From an uncultured Gammaproteobacteria bacterium (GTDB lineage Bacteria; Patescibacteriota; Patescibacteriia; Patescibacteriales; GWC2-42-12), in contig CAYXNZ010000001.1 in the NCBI GenBank assembly GCA_964467155.1, positions 4,070 through 68,069 on the forward strand: a DNA stretch of 64,000 nucleotides, read 5' to 3'. The first letter of the stretch is position 1, and each line of letters begins with the position of its first letter. Under the pieces are notes generated by a model. It did no database searches, was not told the origin of the DNA, and worked only from the letters and a program-made list of their open reading frames with translations. The position numbers were made by a program, and so were the translations under genes. Positions 7,427 through 57,518 of this stretch are shown piece after piece.

Positions 7427-8770
7427 ATGAATTTAGATAATGTAAAAAAATTAACAATCCCTGTTTTACCTGGATGTTATGAGTTTTTTAATAAGCAAGG
7501 CAAGATTATTTATATCGGTAAGGCGGCTAATTTAAAAGCACGTGTTTTTTCTTATTGGCAAAAGAGCACTAATCATACATTAGCTAAGGAAGAAATGGTA
7601 AAGAAAGTATTTGAAATTAAATGGATAGAAACTGACAGTGAAGTAGAGGCCCTACTTTTAGAGGCAAACTTAATTAAAAAAAATAAGCCTTATTACAATA
7701 TTTTATTGCGTGATGATAAACGTTTTGTTTATATAAAAATTTCTACTGAAGAAAAATATCCTCGAATTTTTATGACTAGAGAAATAGAAAAAACTGGTCG
7801 ATATTTTGGTCCATTTACTAGTGTCGAATCAGTTCGAGAGACTTTGAAAATTATTAGAAAAATGTGGACGTATCGTTCTTGCCGTAATTTATCAAAAAAA
7901 GTTTGCTTGTATTATCGGATTGGTAAATGTCCGGGAATGTGCGAGGAAAAAATTAGTCAGACAGAGTATAAGAAAATTATTAAAGAAATAATTGATTTTT
8001 TATCTGGTAAAAAAAAGGCGATTGTGAAAAATTATGAAAAAAAGATAAAACAAGCTAATAACGAAGATGTTAATAGATTAAAATATCAATTAAATAATCT
8101 TAAAAAAGTTTTAGCAACTTCAAGCATAATCGGTGTTGGTGAAAAATATGAAAACGACGTGATTGAGTTATCGAAGGTTTTGGGTTTTGATAAAGATTTA
8201 GCCAGAATTGAAGGCTATGATATCTCAAATATTTTTGGCCGTGAAGCAGTTGGTTCAATGGTTGTTTTTAATAATGGTGAGCCAGACAAAAATGAATATA
8301 GAAAATTCAAAATAAAAATCGGCGAAGGATTAGCTAACGATACTGGAATGTTAAAGGAAATTTTAGAAAGAAGAATAAAACATAGTGTCATTCTGGAAGA
8401 AGCGAGGAACGAGCGACTGATAGAATCTCAAAACAATAAAAACAAAAGAGATACTATCGCTTCGCTCCAGCATGACAAAAAGTGGCCGTTGCCGGATCTG
8501 ATTGTCGTTGATGGAGCTCGGGCACAACTCAATGCGATTTTGTCAGTTTTAAAAAAAAGTAAGCTAAATATTTCAACCATTGCCATTTCAAAAGGTTTGG
8601 GTTTGCGTAGTGCTTTGGCGCCAGACAAGATATTTTTTCCAGGCGAGAAAAAACCATTGGAACTTCCCTTGGCTTCACCAGCTTTGCATTTGATTAAACG
8701 AGTCCGTGATGAAGCTCATCGCTTCGCTATTAATTATCATCGGAAATTAAGAAGTAAAAGATATAAATAA
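7427..8770 (+). CDS. uvrC: excinuclease ABC subunit C, short form without the C-terminal (HhH)2 domain
   Basis: It has a GIY-YIG N-terminus (PGCYEFFNKQGKIIYIGKA), a UVR-like helix, and an endonuclease domain (EGYDISN, PDLIVVDGARAQL, RDEAHRFAINYHR). The protein ends right after that motif. TATAAT at 7415-7420 lies 7 nt before the ATG, so the mRNA may be leaderless. Confidence 0.85.
   Translation: MNLDNVKKLTIPVLPGCYEFFNKQGKIIYIGKAANLKARVFSYWQKSTNHTLAKEEMVKKVFEIKWIETDSEVEALLLEANLIKKNKPYYNILLRDDKRFVYIKISTEEKYPRIFMTREIEKTGRYFGPFTSVESVRETLKIIRKMWTYRSCRNLSKKVCLYYRIGKCPGMCEEKISQTEYKKIIKEIIDFLSGKKKAIVKNYEKKIKQANNEDVNRLKYQLNNLKKVLATSSIIGVGEKYENDVIELSKVLGFDKDLARIEGYDISNIFGREAVGSMVVFNNGEPDKNEYRKFKIKIGEGLANDTGMLKEILERRIKHSVILEEARNERLIESQNNKNKRDTIASLQHDKKWPLPDLIVVDGARAQLNAILSVLKKSKLNISTIAISKGLGLRSALAPDKIFFPGEKKPLELPLASPALHLIKRVRDEAHRFAINYHRKLRSKRYK
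8386..8477 (+). repeat. family-1 palindromic element (tgtcat...atgaca) inserted in frame in uvrC
   Basis: It has the same termini as the intergenic copies. The left arm is near-identical to the leuS copy. It is translated as SVILEEARNERLIESQNNKNKRDTIASLQHD. Confidence 0.7.
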
Positions 8771-8785
8771 TTTTTTATTCTCTTT

Positions 8786-8876
8786 TGTCATGCCGGACTA
8801 TGATCCGGCATCCAGGAGTGAGTAGTAGGAATATAAATTTTTTCATAGATTCCGGCTCGGAGGCCGGAATGACATT
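8786..8876. repeat. family-1 palindromic element, two-hairpin form
   Basis: tgtcatgccggactatgatccggcatccagg ... agattccggctcggaggccggaatgacat. The terminal inverted repeat is tgtcat/atgaca and each arm is itself a GC-rich hairpin. Confidence 0.8.
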
Positions 8877-10275: not shown

Positions 10276-10361
10276 TTGGGGTGCTTTATTCCCCGCCAGT
10301 CGGCGGGGTAAACGCTACTAAGCTCAGGCCTGTCCCGCAGTATTGCGGGAACGCACCCCAA
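10276..10361. repeat. cluster of GC-rich nested hairpins (REP-like)
   Basis: An outer stem ttggggtgc/gcaccccaa encloses hairpins ccccgcc-agt-ggcgggg and tcccgca-gtat-tgcggga. Another hairpin (ctactttttg/caaaaagtag) lies just upstream. Confidence 0.6.
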
Positions 10362-10448
10362 ACCCCATGAATATTTTTATACCAAAATTACTATAAAATT
10401 AAAATAAAAGAATTAAGTAAATTTTTATTAAAATAGTTTTTTTTATTT

Positions 10449-14064: not shown

Positions 14065-14070
14065 AAATTA

Positions 14071-14104
14071 ACCCGCCTGCCAAGCAAGTTCGCGAGCGGG
14101 CAGG
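14071..14104. repeat. family-2 palindromic element just past the kinase stop codon
   Basis: acccgcctgccaagcaagttcgcgagcgggcagg is about 90% identical to 47589-47621 inside rsmA. It is flanked by a 13-nt direct repeat aattaagaattag (14052-14064 and 14106-14118). Confidence 0.75.
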
Positions 14105-14146
14105 AAATTAAGAATTAGGCGAGGATTATTCTCGTTTTTTTTATCC

Positions 14147-14300
14147 CCCCCCCTCCCTAACCCTCCCCCGCAATAAATTGCAGGAGAGGGAACTATATAT
14201 TTTTTTGAAATTATTTGATATCTATCTATTTTATATTATGCGTATTCCCTCTCCCGTGAGGAACGAGCGGGGGGGGGGTTAGGGAGGGGGGATCCAGAAA
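14147..14300. repeat. long GC-rich inverted-repeat element with an AT-rich core
   Basis: cccccccctccctaaccctcccccgc ... gcggggggggggttagggagggggg form arms of about 25 nt. Inner arms are aggagagggaa / ttccctctccc. The element ends in ggatccagaaaggaatgaca, resembling family-1 ends. Confidence 0.7.
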
Positions 14301-14381
14301 GGAATGACAGAAAATTATTCTATTTACTTTTTTTAAGATTTTTGCTAATCTAATGTAGATAAGAATTAAATATTTAAAACT

Positions 14382-15571: not shown

Positions 15572-15734
15572 TGTCATCTCGAGAAGACTCATCCTTATAA
15601 AGGATGAGTTGACGAGAGATCTCTGAAATTAGTAAAAACGTAAATTATTGTAAATTGATTTTAAATAAACAAGTTGATTTAATGAGATCTTTCCTCGCCC
15701 GTCCTTTGTTAAGTCCGGGGTCGTCAAGATGACA
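15572..15734. repeat. family-1 long-form element (163 nt) with tgtcat/atgaca termini
   Basis: tgtcatctcgagaagact[hairpin]gacgagagatctct ... atctttcctcg[hairpin]tcgtcaagatgaca. Its end modules are shared with 18750-18927. Confidence 0.75.
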
Positions 15735-18749: not shown

Positions 18750-18927
18750 TGTCATCTCGAGAAGACTAATTTGTTAGTCGACGAGAGATCTCTAGAATTG
18801 AGTTAAAAGTTAATTGTTATAAAATGGTTTTAAATATTTGTGATTTCTTTTAGTATTTCTTTATTGATAATTTAATTATATTTCCCGAAATCTTTCCTCT
18901 CTCTATCTGACTATCGTCAAGATGACA
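18750..18927. repeat. family-1 long-form element (178 nt)
   Basis: tgtcatctcgagaagact...gacgagagatctct ... atctttcctc...tcgtcaagatgaca. It is a homologue of 15572-15734 with a different AT-rich core. Confidence 0.75.
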
Positions 18928-19083
18928 AAGATAATTAGTTCGGCCCCTAAACCCCATGGATATTTTTATACAATATTACAATTAAAAAAGAAATAAAATA
19001 ATATATAAGAGAACAGAGGTTGTTATTTGATAAAAATAAGTATTTAATATATAATTTTATAGTAATTATTAGCCTATAAATAA

Positions 19084-33145: not shown

Positions 33146-33175
33146 TGTCATACCGGACCACGATCCGGTATCCAG
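33146..33175. repeat. family-1 half element (left arm only)
   Basis: tgtcataccggaccacgatccggtatccag closely matches the left arm at 8786-8816. No right arm is present. Confidence 0.7.
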
Positions 33176-37046: not shown

Positions 37047-37115
37047 TGTCATTCCCGCGAAAGCGGGAATCTATTTTTTAAATTATTCTGGATTCCCGCT
37101 TTCGCGGGAATGACA
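37047..37115. repeat. family-1 element between porD and porA
   Basis: tgtcattcccgcgaaagcgggaatc ... ggattcccgctttcgcgggaatgaca forms a near-perfect 25-nt inverted repeat. Confidence 0.85.
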
Positions 37116-37969: not shown

Positions 37970-38069
37970 TGTCATCCTCGACTTGATCGGGGATCCAGAA
38001 AGTTGTAATATCGGTAAATGGTAAATCTCTAGATTCCCTCCGCCAGTTGGTGGATTCGCGGGAATGACA
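37970..38069. repeat. family-1 element upstream of porG
   Basis: tgtcatcctcgacttgatcggggatccag ... agattccctccgccagttggtggattcgcgggaatgaca. Confidence 0.75.
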
Positions 38070-40822: not shown

Positions 40823-43444
40823 ATGGAAAAATATAATCACAAAAAAATAGAAGAAAAATGGCAGGAGAAATGGGATAAAGATAAATCATATCAGACGAGT
40901 GAAGATAAAAAGAAGCCAAAATATTATATTTTAGACATGTTTCCATATCCTTCAGGAGTAGGTCTACATGTCGGTCATCCAAAAGGTTATATTGCGACCG
41001 ATATTTTTTCTCGAATGAAAATGATGCAAGGATACAACGTTCTTCATCCAATGGGTTGGGATGCTTTTGGTTTACCAGCAGAGAATTATGCTTTAGAAAA
41101 TAAAACACATCCTCGAGAAACAACTAATAAAAACGTGGCAACATTCAAAGCCCAATTGGAAAAGCTAGGTTTTACTTATGATTGGGAAAGAGAAATCAAT
41201 ACAACTGATCCAGAATATTACAAATGGACACAATGGATATTTTTGCAAATGTTTAAAAAAGGATTGGCTTATGAATCCTATGAACCTATAAACTGGTGTC
41301 CGTCATGTAAAACTGGTTTGGCTAACGAAGATTTAGAGGGTGGTCGTTGCGAACGTTGTGGAACAGAGATAGAAAGAAAGCCAATGAGACAATGGGTTTT
41401 GAGGATTACGGATTATGCTGATAGATTACTTAATGATTTAGAGAAATTGCCAGACTGGGAGGAGTCTATAAAAGAAATGCAAAAGAATTGGATTGGGAGA
41501 TCAGAAGGAGCAAGTGTGAAATTTTCTGTCATTCTGGAACAAGCGAATCAAAATGAGCGAAGTGATAGAATCTCGAGATCCTATCGCTCCGATTCATCGG
41601 AGCTCCGGGATGACAATTATAATTTAGAAGTGTTTACTACTCGACCAGATACTTTGTTCGGTTGTACTTACATGGTGGTGGCGCCAGAGCATGAGTTAAT
41701 TAAAAATCATGAGTCAAGCATAAAGAATTATAAAGAAGTTGAAAAATATATTAAGCAAGCTGGAAATAAATCTGATTTAGAGCGGACCGATTTAGCTAAA
41801 AATAAGACTGGCGTGAAAATTGAAGGATTAACAGCCATCAATCCAGTTAATAATCAAGAAATACCAATTTTTGTGGCAGATTATGTCTTAGCTGGTTATG
41901 GCACGGGAGCCATTATGGCTGTGCCAGCTCATGATGAAAGAGATTGGGAGTTTGCTAAAAAATATAAGTTACCCATAATTTGCGTAATATATCCCGAAAA
42001 AATAGAAAATTTTTCAAATTATTTTATTGAGGATGAAAAAACTGGTAAAAGTCAGTTAAGAGGAAGTACAGTTGTTTCTTATGATCCAAAAAATGAAACA
42101 ATAAAAGAAGGTATTAAAAGATTTCTAGAAGAAGTAAAAGAAGGTAAACATTGTCATATTGGTAATGGCAAATTGATAAATTCGGGGTTTTTAAACGGAC
42201 TCGGGATTAAAGAAGCAATTACAAAAATGAATGAATGGCTAGAAAAGAAAAAGGTTGGTAAGAAAGCAATTAATTATCGTTTGCAAGATTGGGTGTTTTC
42301 TCGTCAAAGGTATTGGGGAGAACCAATTCCGATTATTCACTGTGAAAAATGCGGAGCAGTTGGTGTGCCAGAGAAAGATTTGCCAGTAAAACTTCCTGAA
42401 GTAAAAAATTATGAACCAACTGGTACAGGTGAATCACCGTTAGCAAATATTTCTGAATGGGTAAATACAACTTGCCCAAAATGTGGTGGTCCAGCTAAAC
42501 GAGAAACTAACACTATGCCTCAATGGGCTGGTTCAAGCTGGTATTATTTACGTTATATTGATCCAAAAAATAAGAAAGCTTTAGTTGATAAGCAAAAAGA
42601 AAAATATTGGTCGCCGGTTGATTTCTATGTTGGTGGTGCTGAACACGCAACGCGACATTTAATTTACGCTCGTTTTTGGCACAAGTTTTTATTTGATATT
42701 GGGGCAGTTAGTCACGAAGAACCATTTAAACGTTTGCAACATGTCGGTTTAATCAATGCTGAAGATGGCCGAAAAATGAGTAAACGTTGGGGGAACGTAA
42801 TAAACCCTGACGATATAGTAGAAGATTTTGGAGCTGATTCTATGAGGGTTTATGAAATGTTTATGGGACCGTTTAGTCAGCCGTGTGCTTGGAGCACTAA
42901 TGGTTTGATTGGCGCTAGAAAATTTTTGGATAAAGTTTGGGAATCGCAATCAAAAATTAGTAAAGAAAATGATGAACAAAAAGAATTAAATAATTTATTG
43001 CATAAAACCATAAAAAAAGTTGGAGAAGATATTGAAGAATTTAAATTTAATACTGCTATAAGTGCGATGATGATTTTGGTAAACAAAATAAATGAACAAA
43101 AGAATATATCCCTAGAAACTTCTGAAAGTTTAATTAAAATCTTATGTCCATTTGCCCCACACTTATCTGAAGAACTTTGGGAAAATCTAGGTCATAAAGA
43201 AAGTATATTTAAAGAGAGTTGGCCGGAATATGATAAAGATTTAATAAAAGACGAGATGATTGAATTAGTATTGCAAATTAATGGCAAAGTACGAGACAAG
43301 ATTGAAGTTAGTGCTGATATTACCGAAGAGAAAGCAAAAAAAATAGCTCAAGAAAGCGAAGTAATTAAAAAATGGATAGAGGACAAAGAAATAATTAAAG
43401 CTATATTTGTCAAAGGTAAATTAGTGAACATTGTTATTAAATAA
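40823..43444 (+). CDS. leuS: leucine--tRNA ligase
   Basis: It has the HIGH-type motif (HVGHPKGY), a zinc-binding CPSC...CERC, the CP1 motif TTRPDTLFG, and KMSKR. Confidence 0.97.
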   Translation: MEKYNHKKIEEKWQEKWDKDKSYQTSEDKKKPKYYILDMFPYPSGVGLHVGHPKGYIATDIFSRMKMMQGYNVLHPMGWDAFGLPAENYALENKTHPRETTNKNVATFKAQLEKLGFTYDWEREINTTDPEYYKWTQWIFLQMFKKGLAYESYEPINWCPSCKTGLANEDLEGGRCERCGTEIERKPMRQWVLRITDYADRLLNDLEKLPDWEESIKEMQKNWIGRSEGASVKFSVILEQANQNERSDRISRSYRSDSSELRDDNYNLEVFTTRPDTLFGCTYMVVAPEHELIKNHESSIKNYKEVEKYIKQAGNKSDLERTDLAKNKTGVKIEGLTAINPVNNQEIPIFVADYVLAGYGTGAIMAVPAHDERDWEFAKKYKLPIICVIYPEKIENFSNYFIEDEKTGKSQLRGSTVVSYDPKNETIKEGIKRFLEEVKEGKHCHIGNGKLINSGFLNGLGIKEAITKMNEWLEKKKVGKKAINYRLQDWVFSRQRYWGEPIPIIHCEKCGAVGVPEKDLPVKLPEVKNYEPTGTGESPLANISEWVNTTCPKCGGPAKRETNTMPQWAGSSWYYLRYIDPKNKKALVDKQKEKYWSPVDFYVGGAEHATRHLIYARFWHKFLFDIGAVSHEEPFKRLQHVGLINAEDGRKMSKRWGNVINPDDIVEDFGADSMRVYEMFMGPFSQPCAWSTNGLIGARKFLDKVWESQSKISKENDEQKELNNLLHKTIKKVGEDIEEFKFNTAISAMMILVNKINEQKNISLETSESLIKILCPFAPHLSEELWENLGHKESIFKESWPEYDKDLIKDEMIELVLQINGKVRDKIEVSADITEEKAKKIAQESEVIKKWIEDKEIIKAIFVKGKLVNIVIK
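41527..41615 (+). repeat. family-1 element inserted in frame in leuS
   Basis: tgtcattctggaacaagcgaatcaaaatgagcgaagtgatagaatctc...ggagctccgggatgaca is translated as SVILEQANQNERSDRISRSYRSDSSELRDD, just before the conserved VFTTRPDT. Confidence 0.75.
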
Positions 43445-46946: not shown

Positions 46947-47846
46947 ATGGATATATATCAACAAACATTAGAACTGTGTAAACAGTATAATATTAAACCT
47001 GCTCGTTCCAAAGGGCAGAATTTTTTAATTAAAGAAGAAGTTTACAATAATATTATTGAAGCAGCTGATTTGAAAAAAGATAATATTGTTTTGGAGATTG
47101 GACCTGGCTTGGGTTTTTTAACAACCAAATTAGCTGATAAAGCAAAACAGGTAATAACAATAGAACTAGATGATAAATTAGCAAAGTATTTAAAGTTTAG
47201 TTTGGAGATACAAAAAATAAAGAATGTTGAAATTATAAACGAGAATATTTTAGATATTGAAATTGAAAAGTTGAAAGTTAAAAATTTTGAATATAAGATT
47301 GTTGCTAATTTGCCATATAATATCACTTCTATTTTTTTGCGCAAATTTTTATCTTTAAAAAATAAACCAAACACAATGGTTTTGATGTTGCAAAAAGAAG
47401 TAGCAGAGAGAATTTTAGCCAAACCAGGCAAAATGAGTTTACTGGCTGTGTCAGTTCAATATTATGCTGAGCCAGAAATAATTGACTATGTCCCAGCTAA
47501 TGCTTTTTGGCCAGAGCCTCAAGTAGATAGCGCAATAGTTAAGTTGAAAGTCAAAAGTCCCTCCAATTCGGCGGGCAGGCAAAAGTCACCCGCCTGCCAA
47601 GCAAGCTTGCGAACGGGCAGGAAAGTTAAACAGGTTGGTGTGGATAAGGAAAGAGATTTTTTTAGATTAATAAAGTTTGGTTTTAGCTCAAAACGAAAGA
47701 TGTTGAAGAATAATTTATCTGTTGGGTACAAAATAACCCAAGAATTAGCAGAAAATAAACTAAAACAAGTAGGTTTTGACCCAAAAATTAGAGCACAAGA
47801 ATTGTCAGTTGAAGGTTGGGTTAAATTGTTTGGAGAATTTAATTGA
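46947..47846 (+). CDS. rsmA: 16S rRNA (adenine1518/1519-N6)-dimethyltransferase RsmA/KsgA
   Basis: The start is moved to MDIYQQT (46947). SKGQNFL, the motif I sequence LEIGPGLGFLT, NLPYNITS and PQVDSAIV are present. It contains a 25-codon repeat-derived insertion. Confidence 0.9.
   Translation: MDIYQQTLELCKQYNIKPARSKGQNFLIKEEVYNNIIEAADLKKDNIVLEIGPGLGFLTTKLADKAKQVITIELDDKLAKYLKFSLEIQKIKNVEIINENILDIEIEKLKVKNFEYKIVANLPYNITSIFLRKFLSLKNKPNTMVLMLQKEVAERILAKPGKMSLLAVSVQYYAEPEIIDYVPANAFWPEPQVDSAIVKLKVKSPSNSAGRQKSPACQASLRTGRKVKQVGVDKERDFFRLIKFGFSSKRKMLKNNLSVGYKITQELAENKLKQVGFDPKIRAQELSVEGWVKLFGEFN
47547..47630 (+). repeat. family-2 element inserted in frame in rsmA
   Basis: acccgcctgccaagcaagcttgcgaacgggcagg (47589-47621) matches 14071-14104. 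It is bounded by aaagtcaaa / aaagttaaa exactly 75 nt apart, and encodes SPSNSAGRQKSPACQASLRTGRKVK. Confidence 0.75.
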
Positions 47847-49952: not shown

Positions 49953-52900
49953 ATGAAAATTAGTCAAATAAGAACAAAATTAATTATTTTTTTAATATTA
50001 TCAATATCTATAATATTGTTTTTTTCTCCATTTATAGGAGTAAAAGCAGCAGATAGTTTTGCGCCATTTCAAATTGAAAAAGGGAGTTTGTCTGGAAATG
50101 ATTTAACAGCTGGCTATAAAATAGAAACTAGAGCTGACGGAACTGAATGGGTTGTTAAACAAGGAGCAATAGAAAGAACAATGAATCAAGTAAAAACCTG
50201 GGCCATTGATGAGGCATGGAAAGAATTAAAAAAATCAAGTGCAGTTGCATTCAAGCAGTCTTTAAAAAAATATCTTAATACTTTGGCTTATGATATGGCT
50301 ACTTATATAGCCACTGGTGACAAAGGACAAGCACCAATGTTTGAAGTTGATAGTTTTGGTGATTTTGTAAGAAATGCAGCGGATGATTATACAGGATATT
50401 TTATAGAAGAACTTGGTAAAAAAGGAATGTGGGGAACTAAATTTAATCTTTGTGAGCCTGATCCGAATGTTAAACTAACGATAAGTCTAGGTTTACAAAA
50501 AATTTCTCGTCCTGATAAGCCGGAATGTACTTTTACAGAAATGAAGAAAAATTGGGATGAAGCTCTGAGTGATCCAAATTTTTTGAATGATTTTCAGGAC
50601 ATGTTTAATCCATGGTCAAATGATTTAGGTATAGCTTTAACGTTACAAACAGGAATGGAAACAGGTGCTAGTCAAGCGGCTGAAGATGCAGCAAACGAAC
50701 GTTTGGAAGGAATGGGTATAAAGGCTAAAACTGACCCAGTAAGTGGAAAAATTAAAACACCTGTAACAATAGTTAGAGAATTTTTTTATAAACCAATAGA
50801 AGATTCATCTGCTTCGGAAAAAATTTTTACAGGTTCTATAGCAGCAGATGTAATTGATGTTTTTTTGAATACTTTGTTGGGCAAATTGGTTGATAAATGG
50901 TTAGACGAAGGTATCGTGACTGATTTTTTTTCAGACAGCAACTCTGCTGATTATACTTATTCTGGTTCTGGTGGAGGAATAGCTGCAGCAAAAGAAAGAT
51001 TTAAAAGTTTAATTGAACCACAGTTTGGTGTTCGGGGTGACTATGATATTTTAGCAGAATTAACGATGTGTTCTGACCCGACTAAAGCTGGACCAACTAA
51101 TTGTGTTATTACAGATAATTTTCGCCAGGCAATTGAAAACCGATTGACGGTTGGGCAGGCGCTAACACAAGGATATTTAAATACGAGTGGAATTTTTGGT
51201 TTTAATGCAGATGGTTTGGAGCCAAATTACAATGAAGGTTATCCGTATCGTTCTATGATAATTTTAAGAAAATTTAGGATATTACCGGTTGGTTGGGAAC
51301 TAGCAGCAGAATATATTAAAGATCATCCAGCAGAGATTGACGGAACAAAAAATTTAGGTGATTTAGTAGCTTGTTATTCAGCTAGCGATGATTATAACGG
51401 GTATTATGCTAATTGGTGTGATGGGCTGGTTGACCCGACATGGGTTTTGAAAGCGCCGTTGAACTATTGTAAGCGCGAAGGTGCTGGACCAGAAATAATT
51501 TCTGAGCAAATTATGGGTGAAGGGTACGACAGCGAATTGACGATATTGAGAGATGACACTTATTGTGCTGATGAGCAGTCCTGCATCCAGGAAAATAGTG
51601 ATGGTTCGTGTAATCTCTATGGCTACTGCACAGAAGAGAGGCGAACATGGAATTTTAATGCTGATTCGTGCGATCCAATTTATAATACTTGTCAGACTTT
51701 CCGTAGTTCAGACGGACAAACAATATCTTATTTAGAAAATACTTTGGATTATGGTATTTGCTCTATTGATAATGTCGGTTGCCAGGCTTATTGTCAGGAT
51801 TACGATAATACAACTGAAAATTACACTTGTACCGAGAGTACTGGTGATAAAATATATTTAGATAGTAATGCCGAAGAATGTTCGGCTGAAAATGAAGGCT
51901 GCCACGAGTTTATTAGAATGAAACCTGGATTGGGTGCAAACATTTTAACTAATTCTGGTTTTGAAGACGATATTGATGGGACGATTTGGCAAGGCGCAGG
52001 AACGCAGGTTTATGATAGTTACGAAGGCAGTCGAGGGTTGGAACTAGTTAGTAATTTATCAAAAACTATTACTTTTGGACCAAATGATTATAATGTAGCT
52101 GGTCAGTATTTTTCCCTATCTTTTTATGCTAAAGATTGTGGTTTGGGAGACAATTTTGAACTAGGTGAGCAAGAAACAGCAACTAGTTTAAATCAAGCTG
52201 AGGATTGGCAATATTATAATACAGCGTATGTTTATTCAACGGATTTTAATTCTAATCAAGTAAACTTTTCTATAAATTCTGATTCTTGCGTGATTGACGC
52301 AATTAAATTAGAACGCGGACAAGTCACTACGACTTATAGTGATTATCGTGGGCAGGGTTTAGTCTATCAAAAATTAGCACCTGATTATTTGTCATGTGAT
52401 GGCGTGGGTGATTCGTCAGCCTGTGATAATTTTGCTCGTACTTGTTTAGAAGATGAAGTTGGTTGTGAAATGTATACTTCAGTCAACGATGATATAAGCG
52501 TGGCAGCAAAAGTTGTAGCACAAGATTATTGTCCGAGTGAATGTGTTGGTTACGATACCTATATTCAAAGTGAGACGATTTTTGATTCTCTACGTGATTC
52601 ATATTTTATTCCAACTACAGCTCAAGTCTGTGGAGCAGAAGCCGTTGGCTGTGATGAATTTACGAATTTAGACGAAGTGGAGTCTGGTGGCGAAGCACGA
52701 GAATATTATTCTTATTTAAGACAATGTATTGGTGTAAATGATAGTCAATGTGCCGAATTTTACACATGGGAAGGTTCTGATGAATCTGGTTATCAATTAA
52801 AAGTTCTGGTGTTAAAAGAAAACCAGACAACCGGCGAGCCAGCATTAACAGAAGATGATTCTACACAATGTAATGAAGCAATTTATAATTTAGACGAAAC

Positions 52901-55900
52901 TGATCCAAGCTATAATACAGATTGTCGACAATTTTACAACAGAGACGGACAATTGTCTTATCATCTCTATACTCGAACAGTTAGCTGTAGTGATAATTGC
53001 CATCCTTATCGTCGAACTGAAATTAATGTCGATCCAGAAATTGTTTTGAGTGGCGAGTGTGTTGGTTCTGATAGACATTGGGATACGCCAACTGCTCAAT
53101 GTGTTGTTTGTAAAAATAGCGGAGAGTGGAGCGACCAACATCAATCTTGTATTTATATGGCTATACCAGGCGAAGGTATGACTTGCGCAGCTAACCAAGC
53201 AGGTTGCCGTGAATATAGTGGTAATACTGGCAATAACATGAGGTTTGTTTTGAACGATGATTTTGAGGGTAGTTTGCAGGACTGGACAGGTGTTAATGGC
53301 ACAACCATTAGTTTGTCCAATGAGTCACTTGTCGTTGGTGGAAATTCATTAGAAATAACAGGTAGCCCATTTACTATAAGTAAAACAGTCGGGCAGAATG
53401 TCTTTAAAGGTAACGCCTATGTTTTAACCTTTAGTGCAAAAGCGAGTAGTGCTTCAGCAATTACTTCAATCCAAATGTCTGACAGTGAAGCTTCAACTGA
53501 TTTTACAACAGTAAATTTGTCTAATGAATGGCAATATTATGAAGTTAATTTAACTAATCTTGACCATGACGTTTTGAGTGACGAAGCGATAGTTATGGAT
53601 GCCGATGGTAGTTTATATATTAATGATATTAGATTAACTGAGATTACTGATCGCTACTATTTAATCAAAAATTCATGGGTAACACCAGACAGTTGTAATC
53701 GTAATATTAAAGGTGAGCCATCTCCTTTATATATGTTAGGCTGTGAAGCTTATTATGACCGAGAAAATGATATACATAATTTACATAATTTTGATTATTT
53801 ATGTGGTAGTTCCGCGGTTGGTTGCGAATTAATGATTGATACGCATAATTATAGCGATTATCAATCAGAAGTATTTAATGAAAATGATGATAGTGAAATT
53901 ACTGTTTTGGCTGATAATTATTCATATATTGTTTATGACTCAAATAAACAATGCAATCAGGATGACAAAGGTTGCCAAAAATTAGGTGAGCCTTATCAAT
54001 ATGAAGATGATTTATTGTATAGTGATAAATATTTAAAAAACAATCCAGATAAATATAATGAAATATTATGTGAAGCAGAAGCAGTTGGTTGTCAGGAATG
54101 GACATCTACTGATGGTACAAATTACTTTAAAGATCCAGGTGATATGGTTTGTCAGTGGCGTCAAGCAGCTGATACGACTGAGCAAGGTTGGGGCTGGTAT
54201 AAGAAAAAAATTAAACGTTGTAATGGTAACGACGGAGATGTTTGTTTGGTTGATAATGATTGTTCAGACGGACAGACTTGCCAAATGGAAACTGAAGATA
54301 TTTCTTGTGCAACAACATATTGGAAAACTTTTGGTTATGGTGGACAAGAATCTCGTATCTATCAACCAGGCGGCGATTGGACCGGTTTATGTTCAGCTAG
54401 TCAAGCTGGTTGTACAGAATATATTGACCCAGTTTCACAATTTAGTTCAAATATTATTTTTAATAATAACTTGGCATCACCTCAAGACGTTGATTCTAAT
54501 GGAATCCCTGATGGTTGGATAAGTTTCGGAGGTGGTTTTAGTCAGGAAGTATCAGCTAATCCTTATACTTTATATCGTTTAAGTAGAAACAGTTTAGCTG
54601 GAAACATTAGTTTAACTTGTAATAATAATATTTATACCTTGGGTAGCAATAATATATTATCAAGCGGAGCAACGACAATTAGCTTGTCAGATGAGAATTA
54701 TAATTCTAGTAAATTAATTTATATATCCAATAATGAATCTTGTGTAATAAATGTGAGTAGTGCCTCAGGTCAAATTGGACTAGCAGAGGCAGTTATAGAT
54801 TATCAATTAAAAGAAGACATTGATAAACAAAGTTGTAATGGCATAATTGATTTTGAAGATGGTTGTGTTTTATTCAATGAACGAGACAGTAGTGGTTCGT
54901 CTTTATCTGGTTTAACTTGGGACGCTGATTTAACTATTTCTGATCAAAGTGGCGTAACTCCACTCGTAGGAGAAGAAAGCAACAGAGATGCTAATGTCAT
55001 AATAAAAGTAACGCCAGATAGAATTTGTGATAAATGGTTGGCTTGTCGTAGCTACATTAAAGATGAAAACGATAATAACGTATGTTTTGATATAGGTTTA
55101 TGTAATAGTGTTGATCCGAATGGTAACTGCAATAGTTTTTTAACAATCGAAAAAGAAAATCAAATTTATCCTGTTGTACTAGATAATTCTGATATTGCTA
55201 ATATGACTGGATATGCTAAAGTCGGTTATTCTAACGGATCAATGGTTAGTGATTATTATTCGTTTGGTGCAATGGAGCAAGAAGGAGAAATGACTAATGT
55301 TGCCAATAGCGGTTTTGAAATAGCTGGTTCAAATGGTTATCCAATTGGATGGATTTGGGAGGGCGGAACGTGGAATGCTAGCGTATTTAAAGTAATAAAT
55401 AATCCAATTGAAACACAGACTGAAGGACTTGGTTATGCACCTGAAGGACAAAACTTTTTAAAACTTGGCTCAAGCTATAATGCAATTAGTGAATTTGTGG
55501 ATGTAGTTGGTGGAACAGCAAATGATCCAATTGAATATATTGTTACCGCCTACATCAATACTCTTAATTTGAAATCAGGTTCAGCCAAAATAAAAATTGG
55601 TTTATATGATAGCGCTGGTAATCATCTAGCTGATGCTTCAATGAACCCAGAAATAACATTAGAGCCTGGTCATGATTGGATATTTAAATTAGGTAGATTT
55701 AATATATCGTCAACAAACGTTAGCCGAATTAAAATTATTCTTTATTCAGATATTGGGACTGAAGGTAATTATTATTTTGATGATATAAAAATAAAACCAG
55801 CCTTGAATTCAAGAGATAGTTGGTACACACCGCAAAGTTGCCGATTGTATCCGCAAACTGATTCTTTGTCGTGTGATTATTATGATAATTCTGGTAAACG

Positions 55901-57518
55901 ACAAAAAGGTTGGTCAGGTTATTGTCTTGAATATGACAGATATCCTGGTTCGGATGATGCTTGTCTTTTGTGGTGGCCAGTTGATAAAGTCAAAGGTGAA
56001 GGTGTAGAGGAAGGAGCAGGATATATTGGAAAAGTACCAGTGTATTATTGCACGGGATTTCAGAGTGGTATTTTAGTTGAGGCCAGAAAAGCTATATGGG
56101 CAAGTGGTTCTTGTAGTTGTCGAGGATATGGAGATGATGATGAATATAATTTAAGTGTTTGTGAAGGATATGGCTGTGAAGATAATATACCAAACGGTTA
56201 TCATGTAGTTGGCACAGGCCATGAGTCTGGCTGTGGGCATGATTGCCCTGGAGGAGGATTACAGAATGCTCGATTTCATCTATATCCAGATTCAGAAGAT
56301 TTTGTTGTTGCTAGTGATGGTTATGATTGGTATAAATATGATGGTGATTTGCAACTAATGGTTGGAAAAGAGACTTGGGATGAAGCTAATCCTGATTTAC
56401 GATTGTACAATCCTGATGATGGCAATTTATATGATCCTAGAATTGCTTGCACTAAAGTTGTTCAAACTGTTACAACAATTGGACAAAATAAATATTGGTC
56501 AGGTCGAGTTTATGAGGGTAGCGATTATGAAACACCATTATCATCCAGAGAATACAGCACAAGAAATTCTCCTTTTGGGTCTATGCAACCTCCTTCCCCC
56601 GTAAATAATCCCTATGAATGGGATGGAATACTTAATACTGAAGATGATAGTTCGGTTCAGCCTGTATATATTACCGTGGATTCAGATTTGGCTAATGCAG
56701 GGACTCCTTACGGTTGTTTAGGAAGTCAGTGTGATAAATTTGGAGTTTGTTCAATTTCAAGAGAGTTGTGTTACAGAGGAGGACTTGAAGCTTCGGGTGA
56801 TAATTTGCGTATGCCCGATGAGTCGTTATTGTGTAATCAAGAAGAAGATTGTGAATATTTTTCCATTAGAGCTAATGGGCAAAAAGAAGTAAAAGGTCTT
56901 TTCGCTCAAAGTTATGGTACATGGGAATGGGATAATAACCTTGGTCGATATAAGATAAGTAATGGTCAAGACTGGGGACCACCAGATAATTTATGCTATT
57001 CTGACGCCACGGGGCCTGATTGTTTACAAAGAACTGGATCATATTCTCGACCAGCTTTTCCTTGTGATTATTGCGCTATTTTACCGAGGATAGAAAATAT
57101 TAGAGTCAACAATAAAAAAAGAGTTATTGGTGAATTTGATGGATTTATAGAATTAACAAAAAGTCAATTCGTTAAGCTGACTTTTAATAGCATAGTTGAC
57201 AGTCAACAGTTGCCTGTGGTTATGTATGCGATTGATTGGGGAGATGGTGAGGAGACAGTAGTGACTGGGGTAGAGATGAGAGCTAGACCAGACGAAAGTA
57301 ATCCTCATTCACTTTATCATTTATATAGTTATTGGGATTTGAAAGCAAAAGATGCTAGCGGAGTGTCTGACATTGATTGTTCAGTTGAAGGTGAATGTCG
57401 GGTAAAACCAAAAATTAAAATTAAAGATAATTGGGGTTGGTGTAATGGTGGTACAGCAATGAATGACTGTGACCAGTGGGTGGATTTTAGTAGTTGGATT
57501 GTAGTGAAGGAAAAATAA
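49953..57518 (+). CDS. giant (2521 aa) secreted cysteine-rich surface protein with CBM-like beta-sandwich modules and a C-terminal PKD-like domain
   Basis: A single uninterrupted ORF with an N-terminal signal/TM segment. The motif C-x5-G-C-x-E-[FYWM] occurs nine times. NSGFE/DDFEG..W modules lie near 51930, 53240, 54450 and 55300. A WGDGEE PKD-like motif lies near 57240. Confidence 0.85.
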   Translation: MKISQIRTKLIIFLILSISIILFFSPFIGVKAADSFAPFQIEKGSLSGNDLTAGYKIETRADGTEWVVKQGAIERTMNQVKTWAIDEAWKELKKSSAVAFKQSLKKYLNTLAYDMATYIATGDKGQAPMFEVDSFGDFVRNAADDYTGYFIEELGKKGMWGTKFNLCEPDPNVKLTISLGLQKISRPDKPECTFTEMKKNWDEALSDPNFLNDFQDMFNPWSNDLGIALTLQTGMETGASQAAEDAANERLEGMGIKAKTDPVSGKIKTPVTIVREFFYKPIEDSSASEKIFTGSIAADVIDVFLNTLLGKLVDKWLDEGIVTDFFSDSNSADYTYSGSGGGIAAAKERFKSLIEPQFGVRGDYDILAELTMCSDPTKAGPTNCVITDNFRQAIENRLTVGQALTQGYLNTSGIFGFNADGLEPNYNEGYPYRSMIILRKFRILPVGWELAAEYIKDHPAEIDGTKNLGDLVACYSASDDYNGYYANWCDGLVDPTWVLKAPLNYCKREGAGPEIISEQIMGEGYDSELTILRDDTYCADEQSCIQENSDGSCNLYGYCTEERRTWNFNADSCDPIYNTCQTFRSSDGQTISYLENTLDYGICSIDNVGCQAYCQDYDNTTENYTCTESTGDKIYLDSNAEECSAENEGCHEFIRMKPGLGANILTNSGFEDDIDGTIWQGAGTQVYDSYEGSRGLELVSNLSKTITFGPNDYNVAGQYFSLSFYAKDCGLGDNFELGEQETATSLNQAEDWQYYNTAYVYSTDFNSNQVNFSINSDSCVIDAIKLERGQVTTTYSDYRGQGLVYQKLAPDYLSCDGVGDSSACDNFARTCLEDEVGCEMYTSVNDDISVAAKVVAQDYCPSECVGYDTYIQSETIFDSLRDSYFIPTTAQVCGAEAVGCDEFTNLDEVESGGEAREYYSYLRQCIGVNDSQCAEFYTWEGSDESGYQLKVLVLKENQTTGEPALTEDDSTQCNEAIYNLDETDPSYNTDCRQFYNRDGQLSYHLYTRTVSCSDNCHPYRRTEINVDPEIVLSGECVGSDRHWDTPTAQCVVCKNSGEWSDQHQSCIYMAIPGEGMTCAANQAGCREYSGNTGNNMRFVLNDDFEGSLQDWTGVNGTTISLSNESLVVGGNSLEITGSPFTISKTVGQNVFKGNAYVLTFSAKASSASAITSIQMSDSEASTDFTTVNLSNEWQYYEVNLTNLDHDVLSDEAIVMDADGSLYINDIRLTEITDRYYLIKNSWVTPDSCNRNIKGEPSPLYMLGCEAYYDRENDIHNLHNFDYLCGSSAVGCELMIDTHNYSDYQSEVFNENDDSEITVLADNYSYIVYDSNKQCNQDDKGCQKLGEPYQYEDDLLYSDKYLKNNPDKYNEILCEAEAVGCQEWTSTDGTNYFKDPGDMVCQWRQAADTTEQGWGWYKKKIKRCNGNDGDVCLVDNDCSDGQTCQMETEDISCATTYWKTFGYGGQESRIYQPGGDWTGLCSASQAGCTEYIDPVSQFSSNIIFNNNLASPQDVDSNGIPDGWISFGGGFSQEVSANPYTLYRLSRNSLAGNISLTCNNNIYTLGSNNILSSGATTISLSDENYNSSKLIYISNNESCVINVSSASGQIGLAEAVIDYQLKEDIDKQSCNGIIDFEDGCVLFNERDSSGSSLSGLTWDADLTISDQSGVTPLVGEESNRDANVIIKVTPDRICDKWLACRSYIKDENDNNVCFDIGLCNSVDPNGNCNSFLTIEKENQIYPVVLDNSDIANMTGYAKVGYSNGSMVSDYYSFGAMEQEGEMTNVANSGFEIAGSNGYPIGWIWEGGTWNASVFKVINNPIETQTEGLGYAPEGQNFLKLGSSYNAISEFVDVVGGTANDPIEYIVTAYINTLNLKSGSAKIKIGLYDSAGNHLADASMNPEITLEPGHDWIFKLGRFNISSTNVSRIKIILYSDIGTEGNYYFDDIKIKPALNSRDSWYTPQSCRLYPQTDSLSCDYYDNSGKRQKGWSGYCLEYDRYPGSDDACLLWWPVDKVKGEGVEEGAGYIGKVPVYYCTGFQSGILVEARKAIWASGSCSCRGYGDDDEYNLSVCEGYGCEDNIPNGYHVVGTGHESGCGHDCPGGGLQNARFHLYPDSEDFVVASDGYDWYKYDGDLQLMVGKETWDEANPDLRLYNPDDGNLYDPRIACTKVVQTVTTIGQNKYWSGRVYEGSDYETPLSSREYSTRNSPFGSMQPPSPVNNPYEWDGILNTEDDSSVQPVYITVDSDLANAGTPYGCLGSQCDKFGVCSISRELCYRGGLEASGDNLRMPDESLLCNQEEDCEYFSIRANGQKEVKGLFAQSYGTWEWDNNLGRYKISNGQDWGPPDNLCYSDATGPDCLQRTGSYSRPAFPCDYCAILPRIENIRVNNKKRVIGEFDGFIELTKSQFVKLTFNSIVDSQQLPVVMYAIDWGDGEETVVTGVEMRARPDESNPHSLYHLYSYWDLKAKDASGVSDIDCSVEGECRVKPKIKIKDNWGWCNGGTAMNDCDQWVDFSSWIVVKEK

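What the first reader, a model, noticed from the sequence alone, without database searches (positions are those of the whole stretch)
41527..41615. Second in-frame copy of the same element in leuS, at the entry to the CP1 editing domain
Seen: tgtcattctggaacaagcgaatcaaaatgagcgaagtgatagaatctcgagatcctatcgctccgattcatcggagctccgggatgaca encodes SVILEQANQNERSDRISRSYRSDSSELRDD. It lies between GRSEGASVKF and LEVFTTRPDTLFG. The right arm (ccgattcatcgg, ggagctcc) is hairpin-forming like the intergenic copies. The left arm is shared with the uvrC copy, while the right arms differ, suggesting modular arms. An essential aminoacyl-tRNA synthetase tolerates the insertion.
Basis: partly seen in the sequence, partly recalled or inferred. 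Interest (0 to 1): 0.7.

Follow-up and report, generated by a model that had tools for sequence, protein, structure and literature searches.

The report
Hairpin repeat translated inside leucyl-tRNA synthetase
An 89-base copy of a widespread bacterial hairpin repeat (the kind recognised by small Ssn/GIY-YIG nucleases) sits in frame inside the essential leuS gene of a CPR bacterium and adds about 30 floppy amino acids to a surface loop, a known kind of event (as in Rickettsia) but at a loop that turns out to be a recurrent insertion hotspot.

Summary
Window 41527-41615 is a full-length member of a hairpin-repeat family. A profile built only from copies in other genomes hits exactly these coordinates (E about 5e-12). 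It lies in frame in an intact 873-aa leuS, and an independent assembly carries the same insertion.

The element is a head-to-head dimer of two TGTC-tagged hairpin units. The family corresponds to the published CGTC/TGTC-tagged REPs (Neisseria dRS3/NTS, Rickettsia RPE-4/6), now called Ssn-related motifs. In fetched loci, small GIY-YIG (Ssn-like) nuclease genes are flanked by such arms, including leuS-type arms.

The insert sits in the first beta-hairpin of the CP1 editing domain, about 8 residues before TTRPDT. AlphaFold models it as the only long low-confidence loop. Nine LeuRS lineages among 120 CPR homologues carry such repeats in this loop. In eight homologues plus the window the peptide starts one codon after the Phe codon; DNA confirms an identical junction in six. 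At least three arm subfamilies are involved, and each lineage's nearest relative lacks the repeat.

Verdict: a new member of a known kind (RPE-like in-frame repeat). The recurrent same-site occupancy is the unexplained part.

The parts
41527..41615 (.). Head-to-head dimer of two TGTC-tagged hairpin units (Ssn-related-motif / REP dimer), inserted in frame in leuS
   Evidence: Sequence read. External nhmmer profile matches end to end, E 4e-12 and 7e-12. ssDNA fold -15.7 kcal/mol, z -2.7.
41527..41574 (+). Left unit: TGTC tag, ATTCT...AGAAT closing stem, degenerate interior, CTC tail
   Evidence: The intra-arm pairing ATTCT/AGAAT is the covarying helix of the family. The arm alone folds weakly: -1.7 kcal/mol, z +0.8.
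41575..41615 (-). Right unit, read on the minus strand: TGTC tag, ATCCC/AGGAT stem (one G.T wobble), side hairpin GCTCCGA-TGAA-TCGGAGC, CTC tail
   Evidence: -8.5 kcal/mol, z -1.9.
41525..41617 (+). Codons 235-265 of LeuRS, encoding SVILEQANQNERSDRISRSYRSDSSELRDDN. If the element is taken as GTCAT...ATGAC, the net insert is 87 nt (29 codons).
   Evidence: In the AF2 model residues 241-264 have pLDDT below 50, between strands 226-238 and 266-272.
40823..43444 (+). leuS (leucyl-tRNA synthetase), intact 873-aa ORF that hosts the insert
   Evidence: 100% query coverage against CPR LeuRS homologues.
8386..8477 (.). Sister copy of the same subfamily, in frame in uvrC (ORF 7427..8770), encoding SVILEEARNERLIESQNNKNKRDTIASLQHDK
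   Evidence: E about 1e-13.
37047..37115 (.). Intergenic dimer. Its two units match the published Neisseria NTS consensus CGTCATTCCCGCGMAVGCGGGAATCYRG with 2 and 1 mismatches.
   Evidence: ssDNA fold z -12.
8786..8874 (.). Intergenic dimer of TGTC-tagged units with 8-bp stems (ATGCCGGA / ATTCCGGC types) and CCA/CTA tails
37970..38069 (.). Intergenic dimer of TGTC-tagged units
   Evidence: Absent from the orthologous spacers of L002.
33146..33174 (+). Single TGTC-tagged unit (TGTC ATACCGGA CCACGA TCCGGTAT CCA) downstream of rpoC
   Evidence: Absent at the orthologous place in L002.
15572..15734 (.). Longer element with TGTCATCTCGAG...GAGATCTC arms
18750..18927 (.). Second longer element of the same type as 15572-15734
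   Evidence: (D12).

Best explanation
The 89-bp segment is a genuine copy of a dispersed hairpin repeat. It consists of two TGTC-tagged stem-loop units placed head to head. This repeat class is published as CGTC/TGTC-tagged REPs and, more recently, as Ssn-related motifs (SRM). Neisseria NTS/dRS3 and Rickettsia RPE-4/6 belong to it.

Shown here:
- The copy landed in leuS inside the loop of the first beta-hairpin of the CP1 editing domain.
- Its net length is a multiple of three, and the frame used has no stop codon.
- The repeat family is linked to small single-domain GIY-YIG nuclease genes, which in fetched loci are flanked by, or sit inside, such arm pairs.

Inferred:
- The segment is transcribed and translated as a roughly 30-residue hydrophilic, largely disordered excursion from the hairpin tip. 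The catalytic core and the TTRPDT editing motif stay intact.
- It persists because this loop tolerates almost anything. In other CPR LeuRS it carries other repeats and even whole domains.
- Copies that land in genes in other frames, with other lengths or at other places are removed by selection.

Hypothesised only (by the literature too):
- The repeats spread through single-stranded DNA intermediates. The published Ssn enzymes bind the hairpin as ssDNA and cut a few nucleotides upstream. Mobilisation by Ssn has not been demonstrated.

No function for the host is implied.
For: Membership. A profile from 28 foreign copies hits 41527-41615 and 8386-8477 full length. The termini TGTCAT...ATGACA are shared by 7 dimers and 1 monomer in 64 kb. 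Unit 37047-37115 matches the NTS consensus.

Arm units. The intra-arm helix covaries perfectly, with 25 double changes and 0/500 shuffles reaching the observed score. The inter-arm helices do not covary.

Intact host gene. The ORF is 873 aa with all LeuRS domains. An independent assembly carries the same insert.

Location. The insert lies between T. thermophilus LeuRS residues 236 and 242, just before TTRPDT 247-252. In the AF2 model, 241-264 is the only long segment with pLDDT below 50 and sits at the tip of a beta-hairpin.

Permissive loop. The GRSxG..TTRPDT segment is 26 aa in the shortest homologues. Others carry repeat-derived peptides or inserted domains of 150-350 aa there.

Inserts are repeats at the DNA level in other LeuRS: L001, L003, L004, L005, L006, L206.

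Selection filter. Only 12 of 48 short copies elsewhere have a core length that is a multiple of 3, and only 9 of those are also open. Every genic copy seen keeps the host ORF intact: LeuRS, UvrC, MnmA x2, ValRS, AlaRS, AsnB-like.

Nuclease link. GIY-YIG ORFs (Pfam PF01541, E 6e-19) lie inside arm pairs in L034, L043, L070, L103 and L031. In 64 metagenome loci chosen only for that protein, 45 have an arm upstream, 47 downstream and 38 both, against 4.2% of control windows. This agrees with PMC11893778.

Presence/absence between relatives. The closest LeuRS (L002, 79% identity on conserved columns) has an empty site. The sister pair L003/L205 (91%) differs completely in this loop.
Against: - No Ssn/GIY-YIG gene lies in the 64-kb window, so a cognate nuclease in this genome is unverified.
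- No empty-site allele from the same species was found, so recent insertion is not directly shown.
- No target-site duplication or conserved target motif was seen, so the insertion chemistry is unknown.
- The left arm of the leuS copy folds poorly on its own.
- Translation, and activity of the enzyme with the insert, are inferred rather than measured.
- The identical junction in many lineages is not explained by random insertion plus selection alone.
Confidence: 0.85

Rival explanations
1. There was one ancient insertion in an ancestor of these CPR lineages, inherited vertically at this leuS site. It was repeatedly lost, or overwritten in place by gene conversion or replacement from other genomic copies. 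This would explain why the junction is identical everywhere.
For: The peptide starts one codon after the Phe codon in the window and 8 homologues; DNA confirms the junction TT(T/C) NC|TGTCAT in six of them. The window's insert peptide is most like that of P0008 (20 of 31 residues). An orthologous intergenic spacer also carries different repeat subfamilies in the window and in L002. That fits turnover at occupied sites.
Against: Each repeat-bearing LeuRS has as nearest relative (80-91% identity) a LeuRS without it. Bearers are no closer to one another (67-78%) than to non-bearers. The arms belong to at least 3 subfamilies, and one site holds only a monomer. Copies such as L001 are near-consensus (E 4e-16). 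Neutral DNA should have decayed at this host divergence. The NJ tree is star-like and weakly resolved, so this rival is not excluded.
Confidence: 0.15
2. The segment is an intervening sequence removed after transcription or translation (mini-intron or intein-like), so the mature LeuRS lacks it.
For: None directly. CPR genomes are known to carry intervening sequences in rRNA genes (my own background knowledge).
Against: Every genic copy examined keeps the reading frame open and has a multiple-of-three net length. That would be unnecessary if the segment were spliced. There is no Rfam intron or ribozyme match. There are no intein motifs, and 30 aa is far too short for an intein.
Confidence: 0.03
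3. It is a lineage-specific functional extension of the CP1 hairpin, selected for a role in tRNA or editing control. Its resemblance to the repeat is incidental or secondary.
For: The loop is next to the editing-site motif. Many CPR LeuRS elaborate this loop, some with enzyme domains.
Against: The DNA matches the repeat family over its full length, including non-coding-type features: tag, stems, tail. The peptide is predicted disordered. Close relatives lack it. One of only two SNPs in 7 kb between the two assemblies is a non-synonymous change inside it.
Confidence: 0.03
4. It is an assembly or sequencing artefact that hides a split or chimeric leuS.
For: Repeats can mislead assemblers.
Against: An independent assembly from another ENA dataset has the same insert at the same place, with 2 mismatches in 7050 bp. 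The ORF is continuous and aligns end to end with homologues. Homologous inserts occur in many other assemblies.
Confidence: 0.01

Closest known systems
Ssn-related motifs (SRM) / Neisseria Transformation Sequence (NTS, a longer form of dRS3) with Ssn GIY-YIG ssDNA endonucleases (Chenal et al. 2025, Nat Commun 16:2388, PMC11893778)
   Same: The units share a (C/T)GTC tag, a stem starting with AT, a C right after the palindrome, a length of 20-50 nt and many copies. One window element matches the NTS consensus with 1-2 mismatches. Genes for ~95-aa single-domain GIY-YIG proteins are flanked by inverted arms, including leuS-type arms. My alignment of these proteins has invariant Y6, Y17 and E64. 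These are the residue numbers mutated in Nm SsnA in that paper.
   Different: The leuS/uvrC subfamily has a short 5-bp closing stem around a long variable interior, not a compact 8-bp hairpin. The host is a CPR/Patescibacteria genome, which that paper does not mention. The copy is intragenic and in frame; the paper reports NTS as rarely inside genes (2%). No ssnA gene lies in this window. Binding and cleavage were not tested here.
CGTC-tagged REPs (Di Nocera, De Gregorio & Rocco 2013, BMC Genomics 14:522, PMC3733652)
   Same: The tag is often TGTC. Stems are 8-9 bp and begin with AT, loops are 4-5 nt, and tails are CCA. Head-to-head dimers predominate. Intragenic copies encoding 20-30 aa are reported in uvrA/uvrB/dnaE and tRNA synthetase genes. 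Window copies 8786, 33146, 37047 and 37970 fit this description.
   Different: The leuS-type arms depart from the 8-9 bp stem and 4-5 nt loop rule. That survey predates CPR genomes and states that no dedicated transposase is known.
Rickettsia palindromic elements (RPE; Ogata et al. 2000, Science; my own knowledge, and cited in PMC3733652, where RPE-4 and RPE-6 are equated with CGTC REPs)
   Same: A palindromic repeat is inserted in frame in many unrelated, often essential, protein genes. It is translated as an extra surface peptide with no evident function. Sister genomes lack individual copies.
   Different: The phylum and repeat subfamily differ, and sequence similarity to RPEs was not tested here. 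In this case the same loop is hit repeatedly in many lineages, at one nucleotide position.
REPIN/RAYT systems (Bertels & Rainey 2011, PMC3116915)
   Same: Two inverted REP hairpins form a doublet that behaves as the repeat unit. A single associated nuclease or transposase gene is flanked by the repeats. An ssDNA hairpin is the substrate.
   Different: The tag is TGTC, not GTAG. The associated protein is a GIY-YIG nuclease, not a Y1 HUH transposase. No RAYT was seen.

Membership tests
Ssn-related motif (SRM/NTS) repeats | 5' (C/T)GTC tag immediately before a palindromic stem that starts with AT | tested here: met
   Both leuS arms begin TGTCAT. The tag is invariant in 28 of 28 foreign copies.
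Ssn-related motif (SRM/NTS) repeats | Hairpin-forming unit of 20-50 nt with a conserved C right after the palindrome | tested here: met
   The intra-arm helix AyyCT/AGrrT covaries perfectly, and each arm ends ...AGAAT-C-TC. The leuS arms are 48 and 41 nt. The left arm is thermodynamically weak.
Ssn-related motif (SRM/NTS) repeats | The same motif flanks genes for single-domain Ssn (GIY-YIG, cd10448-like) nucleases | tested here: met
   leuS-type arms (TGTCATTCTGGA...GATAGAATCTC) flank GIY-YIG ORFs in L034, L043, L070, L137 and L151. Pfam GIY-YIG E 6e-19. 38 of 64 loci have arms on both sides, against 4.2% of control windows. Assignment to cd10448 itself was not testable.
Ssn-related motif (SRM/NTS) repeats | A cognate ssn gene in the same genome | tested here: inconclusive
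   None in the 64-kb window. The rest of the genome is not available.
Ssn-related motif (SRM/NTS) repeats | Bound as ssDNA and cleaved a few nt upstream by the cognate Ssn | not testable with these tools
   This needs a biochemical assay.
CGTC-tagged REPs (Di Nocera 2013) | Stem of 8-9 bp, loop of 4-5 nt, CCA tail | tested here: not met
   Met by window units 8786, 33146, 37047 and 37970. Not met by the leuS/uvrC subfamily, which has a 5-bp closing stem, an interior of 20-30 nt and a CTC tail. That subfamily is a structural variant.
CGTC-tagged REPs (Di Nocera 2013) | Predominantly head-to-head dimers | tested here: met
   7 dimers and 1 monomer in the window.
RPE-like in-frame repeat insertions | Repeat copy inside an intact ORF, with net length a multiple of 3 and no stop codon | tested here: met
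RPE-like in-frame repeat insertions | Orthologues in related genomes lack the insert | tested here: met
   L002 has an empty site. The nearest relatives of all 9 bearing lineages lack the repeat.
RPE-like in-frame repeat insertions | Insert lies at the protein surface, away from catalytic residues | tested here: met
   It sits at a beta-hairpin tip with pLDDT below 50. The same loop holds whole domains in homologues. Its distance to the tRNA path was not computed.
Classical MITE (derivative of a DDE insertion sequence) | Terminal inverted repeats plus a target-site duplication | tested here: not met
   The termini are inverted, but no duplication flanks any of the 7 window copies. The arms are hairpin units rather than simple TIRs.
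REPIN/RAYT | GTAG tag and an associated Y1 (RAYT) transposase | tested here: not met
   The tag is TGTC, and the associated gene is GIY-YIG.

The most novel reading that the evidence does not exclude
Ssn-related hairpin repeats may integrate, or replace one another, at one precise nucleotide position of leuS (TTy NC|TGTCAT, one codon after the conserved Phe of the CP1 hairpin). This would have happened independently in many CPR lineages and with different repeat subfamilies. If so, the elements have a targeted (homing-like, or hairpin- or occupied-site-directed) insertion mode. The leuS loop would then be a natural reporter for the still unknown mobility mechanism of the Ssn/SRM system.
Probability: 0.25. 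Interest if true: 0.7.

Novelty: new member of a known kind. Interest (0 to 1): 0.45.

Why it matters
It extends the Rickettsia-type phenomenon of selfish hairpin DNA translated inside essential genes to the CPR/Patescibacteria. It also ties that phenomenon to the recently defined Ssn/SRM repeat system.

The recurrent hits give practical material for two open questions.
- How SRM/REP-type repeats move. No mechanism is known; the Ssn paper only hypothesises IS-like behaviour.
- How much structural load the LeuRS CP1 hairpin can bear. In CPR it carries repeats and whole enzyme domains.

For annotation, it explains the odd VILE.../...QDD and CHSG.../...RMT peptides seen in CPR proteins. It also warns against reading them as functional motifs.

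Tried and rejected
- Target-site duplications and a target motif: none found in the flanks of the 7 window copies or the LeuRS copies.
- One long cruciform or four-way fold (outer plus inner inter-arm stems): rejected. These helices show no covariation, whereas the intra-arm helices do.
- Rfam: no match for the window or the site.
- Census of proteins carrying the insert peptide, four failed attempts. The alignment query was too short. The padded alignment found no candidate words. An exhaustive phmmer with the 31-aa peptide gave no hit at E<=0.001. A 74-aa LeuRS fragment query returned only short insert-free fragments.
- I briefly took the GIY-YIG/repeat association as a possible new finding. 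I withdrew this after finding PMC11893778.
- A simple TGTC-plus-5-bp-stem scan of the window is not specific: 20 hits against about 16 in shuffles. I used it only for the clear 8-bp cases.
- DNA for P0008, the LeuRS whose insert is most similar to the window's, could not be fetched.
- PDB holds no close Ssn structure, only UPF0213 proteins at E 4e-7.
Full report
**1. The observation**

It lies inside a single uninterrupted ORF, 40823..43444 on the + strand, 873 aa. That ORF carries the class-I synthetase core, the LeuRS editing domain (PF13603, aa 221-417) and the anticodon-binding domain. It aligns over 100% of its length with CPR/Patescibacteria LeuRS.

Codons 41525-41617 encode SVILEQANQNERSDRISRSYRSDSSELRDDN. 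GRSEGASVKF precedes this peptide, and NYN then LEVFTTRPDTLFG follow it. The segment has 47% G+C in a 33% G+C window.

An independent ENA assembly (L124) is collinear with the window over 7050 bp, with two mismatches, and has the same insert. One of the two mismatches is a non-synonymous change inside the insert. The insert is therefore neither an assembly artefact nor a hidden frameshift.

**2. It is a repeat copy, and more than chance**

Termini TGTCAT...ATGACA delimit seven elements in the window:
- 8386-8477
- 8786-8874
- 15572-15734
- 18750-18927
- 37047-37115
- 37970-38069
- 41527-41615

There is also a lone unit at 33146.

A pattern taken from the leuS and uvrC left arms found more than 117 stretches in GTDB genomes. 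From these I aligned 28 short complete copies, none from this window (A1). An nhmmer profile of A1 matches 41527-41615 end to end (E 4e-12 and 7e-12 on the two strands). It also matches the uvrC copy 8386-8477 (E about 1e-13).

The uvrC copy lies in frame in ORF 7427..8770, which has GIY-YIG and UvrC RNase H domains. It is read in the same frame as the leuS copy: SVILEEARNERLIESQ...ASLQHDK.

**3. Anatomy**

Copies look like one long palindrome, but covariation says otherwise.
- The inter-arm helices (outer TGTCATyCTGGAG/CTCCAGrATGACA and inner GATAGrATCTC/GAGATyCTATC) show only one double change. Their covariation is below every shuffle.
- The five-pair helix within each arm (AyyCT with AGrrT) has 25 double-change cells, no single-side change and 98.9% pairing. 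None of 500 shuffles reaches the observed score.

So the unit is one arm: a TGTC tag, a stem starting with AT, a variable interior (often a side hairpin), the closing half-stem and a C-rich tail. An element is a head-to-head dimer of two such units. It also explains lone arms, such as window 33146 and the LeuRS of L206.

In the leuS copy the left arm has a degenerate interior and folds weakly. The right arm carries a good side hairpin. The whole element folds at -15.7 kcal/mol as ssDNA, z -2.7. No target-site duplication is visible. Flanks are simply T|...|A in AT-rich context.

**4. What family this is**

Di Nocera et al. 2013 (PMC3733652) describe CGTC-tagged REPs as follows:
- The tag is often TGTC.
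- Stems are 8-9 bp and begin with AT.
- Loops are 4-5 nt, and tails are CCA.
- Most copies are head-to-head dimers.
- The class includes Neisseria dRS3 and Rickettsia RPE-4 and RPE-6.
- Intragenic copies encoding 20-30 aa occur in uvrA/uvrB/dnaE and tRNA synthetase genes.
- No dedicated transposase is known.

Window units 8786, 33146, 37047 and 37970 fit this description exactly.

Chenal et al. 2025 (PMC11893778) showed that these repeats are bound as ssDNA by small single-domain GIY-YIG nucleases (Ssn). They call the repeats NTS in Neisseria (consensus CGTCATTCCCGCGMAVGCGGGAATCYRG) and Ssn-related motifs (SRM) in general. The nucleases cut a few nucleotides upstream. In their survey, 71% of ssnA homologues have an SRM nearby and 42% have one on both sides.

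The two units of window 37047-37115 match the NTS consensus with 2 and 1 mismatches.

I reached the nuclease link independently before finding that paper.
- In L034, L043, L070, L103 and L031 a ~95-aa GIY-YIG ORF (Pfam E 6e-19) sits between a left and a right arm, including leuS-type arms.
- I fetched 80 metagenome loci only for encoding relatives of that protein; 64 of them had full flanks. Of these, 45 have a tagged hairpin upstream, 47 downstream and 38 both, against 4.2% of control windows.
- The protein alignment has invariant Y6, Y17 and E64, the residue numbers mutated in Nm SsnA.

The association is therefore real but already published. No such gene lies in the window. The leuS/uvrC subfamily is a structural variant of the SRM: a short closing stem around a long interior.

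**5. Where it sits in LeuRS**

Against solved structures, the insert falls between T. thermophilus LeuRS residues 236 and 242. This is just before TTRPDT (247-252), and inside the first beta-hairpin of the CP1 editing domain.

The AlphaFold2 model has mean pLDDT 81 and pTM 0.74. It has a single long low-confidence segment, residues 241-264, emerging between strands 226-238 and 266-272. The first residues of the insert (SVIL) are modelled as a continuation of the first strand.

**6. The loop is a hotspot**

In the 120 best LeuRS homologues, the GRSxG..TTRPDT segment is 26 aa in the shortest. Many sequences are longer there.
- Eight homologues besides the window carry peptides in the same frame directly after F-x. 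Examples are P0008 SVILERANDSERSDRISGSYHPSSNSGLQDDN and P0111 SVILERPQGAIESQKKNQDAIASLQHDN.
- Two carry the repeat in another frame, two codons later (P0045, P0120: ..CH..).
- Others carry different hairpin-derived peptides.
- At least ten carry whole domains of 150-350 aa: PDDEXK_3, NUDIX, Ham1, ASCH, alpha/beta hydrolase.

DNA fetched for six of the repeat-bearing homologues shows the repeat's termini in each.
- The junction is identical, TT(T/C) NC|TGTCAT...ATGAC|(A/G), in the window, L001, L003, L004, L006 and L206.
- L005 has a shifted junction.
- L206 holds only a monomer.
- The profile hits L001 (E 4e-16), L004 (2e-5) and L003 (1e-3).

The arms belong to at least three subfamilies: ATTCTGGAG..GATAGAAT, ATTCTGAG..GAAGAAT and ATTGCGAG..GCAAT.

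Each of the nine bearing lineages has as nearest relative (80-91% identity on 781 conserved columns) a LeuRS without the repeat. Bearers are only 67-78% identical to one another. The sister pair L003/L205 (91%) has an SRM dimer in one member and an unrelated GC palindrome in the other. The window's closest relative, L002 (79%), has an empty site: AAA TTT TCA ATT TCC.

Fifty LeuRS fragments, mostly from other bacteria, have short loops and no such peptide.

**7. Generality**

Among the fetched loci, copies of the same subfamily lie in frame in five other genes:
- MnmA, at the same site in L053 and L104
- ValRS (L079)
- AlaRS (L095)
- an asparagine-synthase-like gene (L100)

Of 48 short copies elsewhere, only 12 have a core length that is a multiple of three, and only 9 of those are also open. 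Genic copies are therefore a filtered subset, as in the classical argument for Rickettsia RPEs.

Syntenic comparison with L002 shows presence/absence and subfamily replacement at intergenic sites as well.

**8. Explanation and what stays open**

The best-supported reading is a passenger. An SRM/REP dimer landed in a permissive surface loop of LeuRS in a length and frame that keep the ORF open. It is translated as a disordered peptide and retained because it does little harm.

Shown:
- family membership
- arm structure
- ORF integrity
- location in the protein
- absence from relatives
- the link between the family and Ssn-type genes

Inferred:
- translation
- neutrality
- spread through ssDNA intermediates with Ssn involvement, which the literature itself only hypothesises

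Unexplained: why insertions in many lineages, from different subfamilies, share one nucleotide junction. Three readings are possible:
- narrow structural selection, because the VIL start continues the beta-strand
- an old occupied site that attracts or templates replacement
- genuine target specificity

The star-like NJ tree cannot decide among these.

**9. Verdict**

The element type, its nuclease partner and in-frame insertion into synthetase and repair genes are all known. What is new is the host phylum, the specific variant, and the recurrent same-site occupancy of the LeuRS CP1 hairpin. Taxon labels are those in the record titles. Some "uncultured Gammaproteobacteria" MAGs carry CPR-like genes and may be mislabelled.

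Noticed in passing
LeuRS homologues P0012, P0028, P0114, P0038, P0059, P0094, P0104, P0029, P0034, P0049 (loop equivalent to window aa 234-266): In CPR LeuRS whole domains are inserted in the same CP1 hairpin loop. They are PDDEXK_3 (PF13366), NUDIX, Ham1/ITPase, and ASCH with or without an alpha/beta hydrolase. Proteins reach up to 1398 aa.
   Followed up: partly
L053 3409-3514 and L104 4382-4487: The tRNA 2-thiouridylase MnmA carries an in-frame copy of the same repeat at the same site in two different MAGs (..GP IVILE...SRMT(G/D) (K/N)KIIG..). This is a second example of same-site occupancy.
   Followed up: partly
L079 7468-7555; L095 158-231; L100 about 6908-7009: In-frame copies also occur in ValRS, AlaRS and an asparagine-synthase-like gene. 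The ValRS has a second partial arm (DAIASLQHDK) further downstream.
   Followed up: partly
window 37047-37115 versus L002 7076-7151: The orthologous spacer between the POR_N and ferredoxin genes holds an NTS-type dimer in the window. In the closest relative it holds a single ATTGC-type unit with a different side hairpin. This suggests repeat turnover at one place.
   Followed up: partly
L205 1697-1768 (LeuRS of P0116): A LeuRS 91% identical to the SRM-bearing P0071 has instead an untagged perfect GC palindrome in the loop: TCCGCCCGAGGCGGA TCCGCCTCGGGCGGA, giving ...SARGGSASGGE....
   Followed up: no
window 14170-14309: A G-rich hairpin region ends in ...GGATCCAGAAAGGAATGACA. It looks like a lone right end of the repeat family with an unusual interior, including a run of about 10 G.
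   Followed up: no
window 14065-14107 and 47582-47624: Two 43-nt copies (88% identical) of another hairpin, ACCCGCCTGCCAAGCAAG.T.GCGA.CGGGCAGG. It has no TGTC tag.
   Followed up: no
window 10356-10413 and 18945-19002: A 58-nt direct repeat (76%) begins CCCnAAACCCCATGnATATTTTTATAC, next to the repeat element at 18750-18927.
   Followed up: no
L103 7320-7600: An Ssn-like GIY-YIG ORF inside a complete arm pair has an in-frame TGA. The MAG is titled "uncultured Gammaproteobacteria". MAGs with that title carry MnmA about 75% identical (judged by eye, not computed) to that of a CPR MAG, so the labels, or the genetic code assumed, may be wrong.
   Followed up: no
window 41544: One of only two differences between the window and an independent assembly over 7050 bp lies inside the leuS insert (Ala to Gly). 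This fits relaxed constraint, but it is a single observation.
   Followed up: yes
window 645-3131 and 49953-57518: One ORF has long Glu/Asp-rich tracts (repeat family D1). There is also a giant 2521-aa ORF.
   Followed up: no
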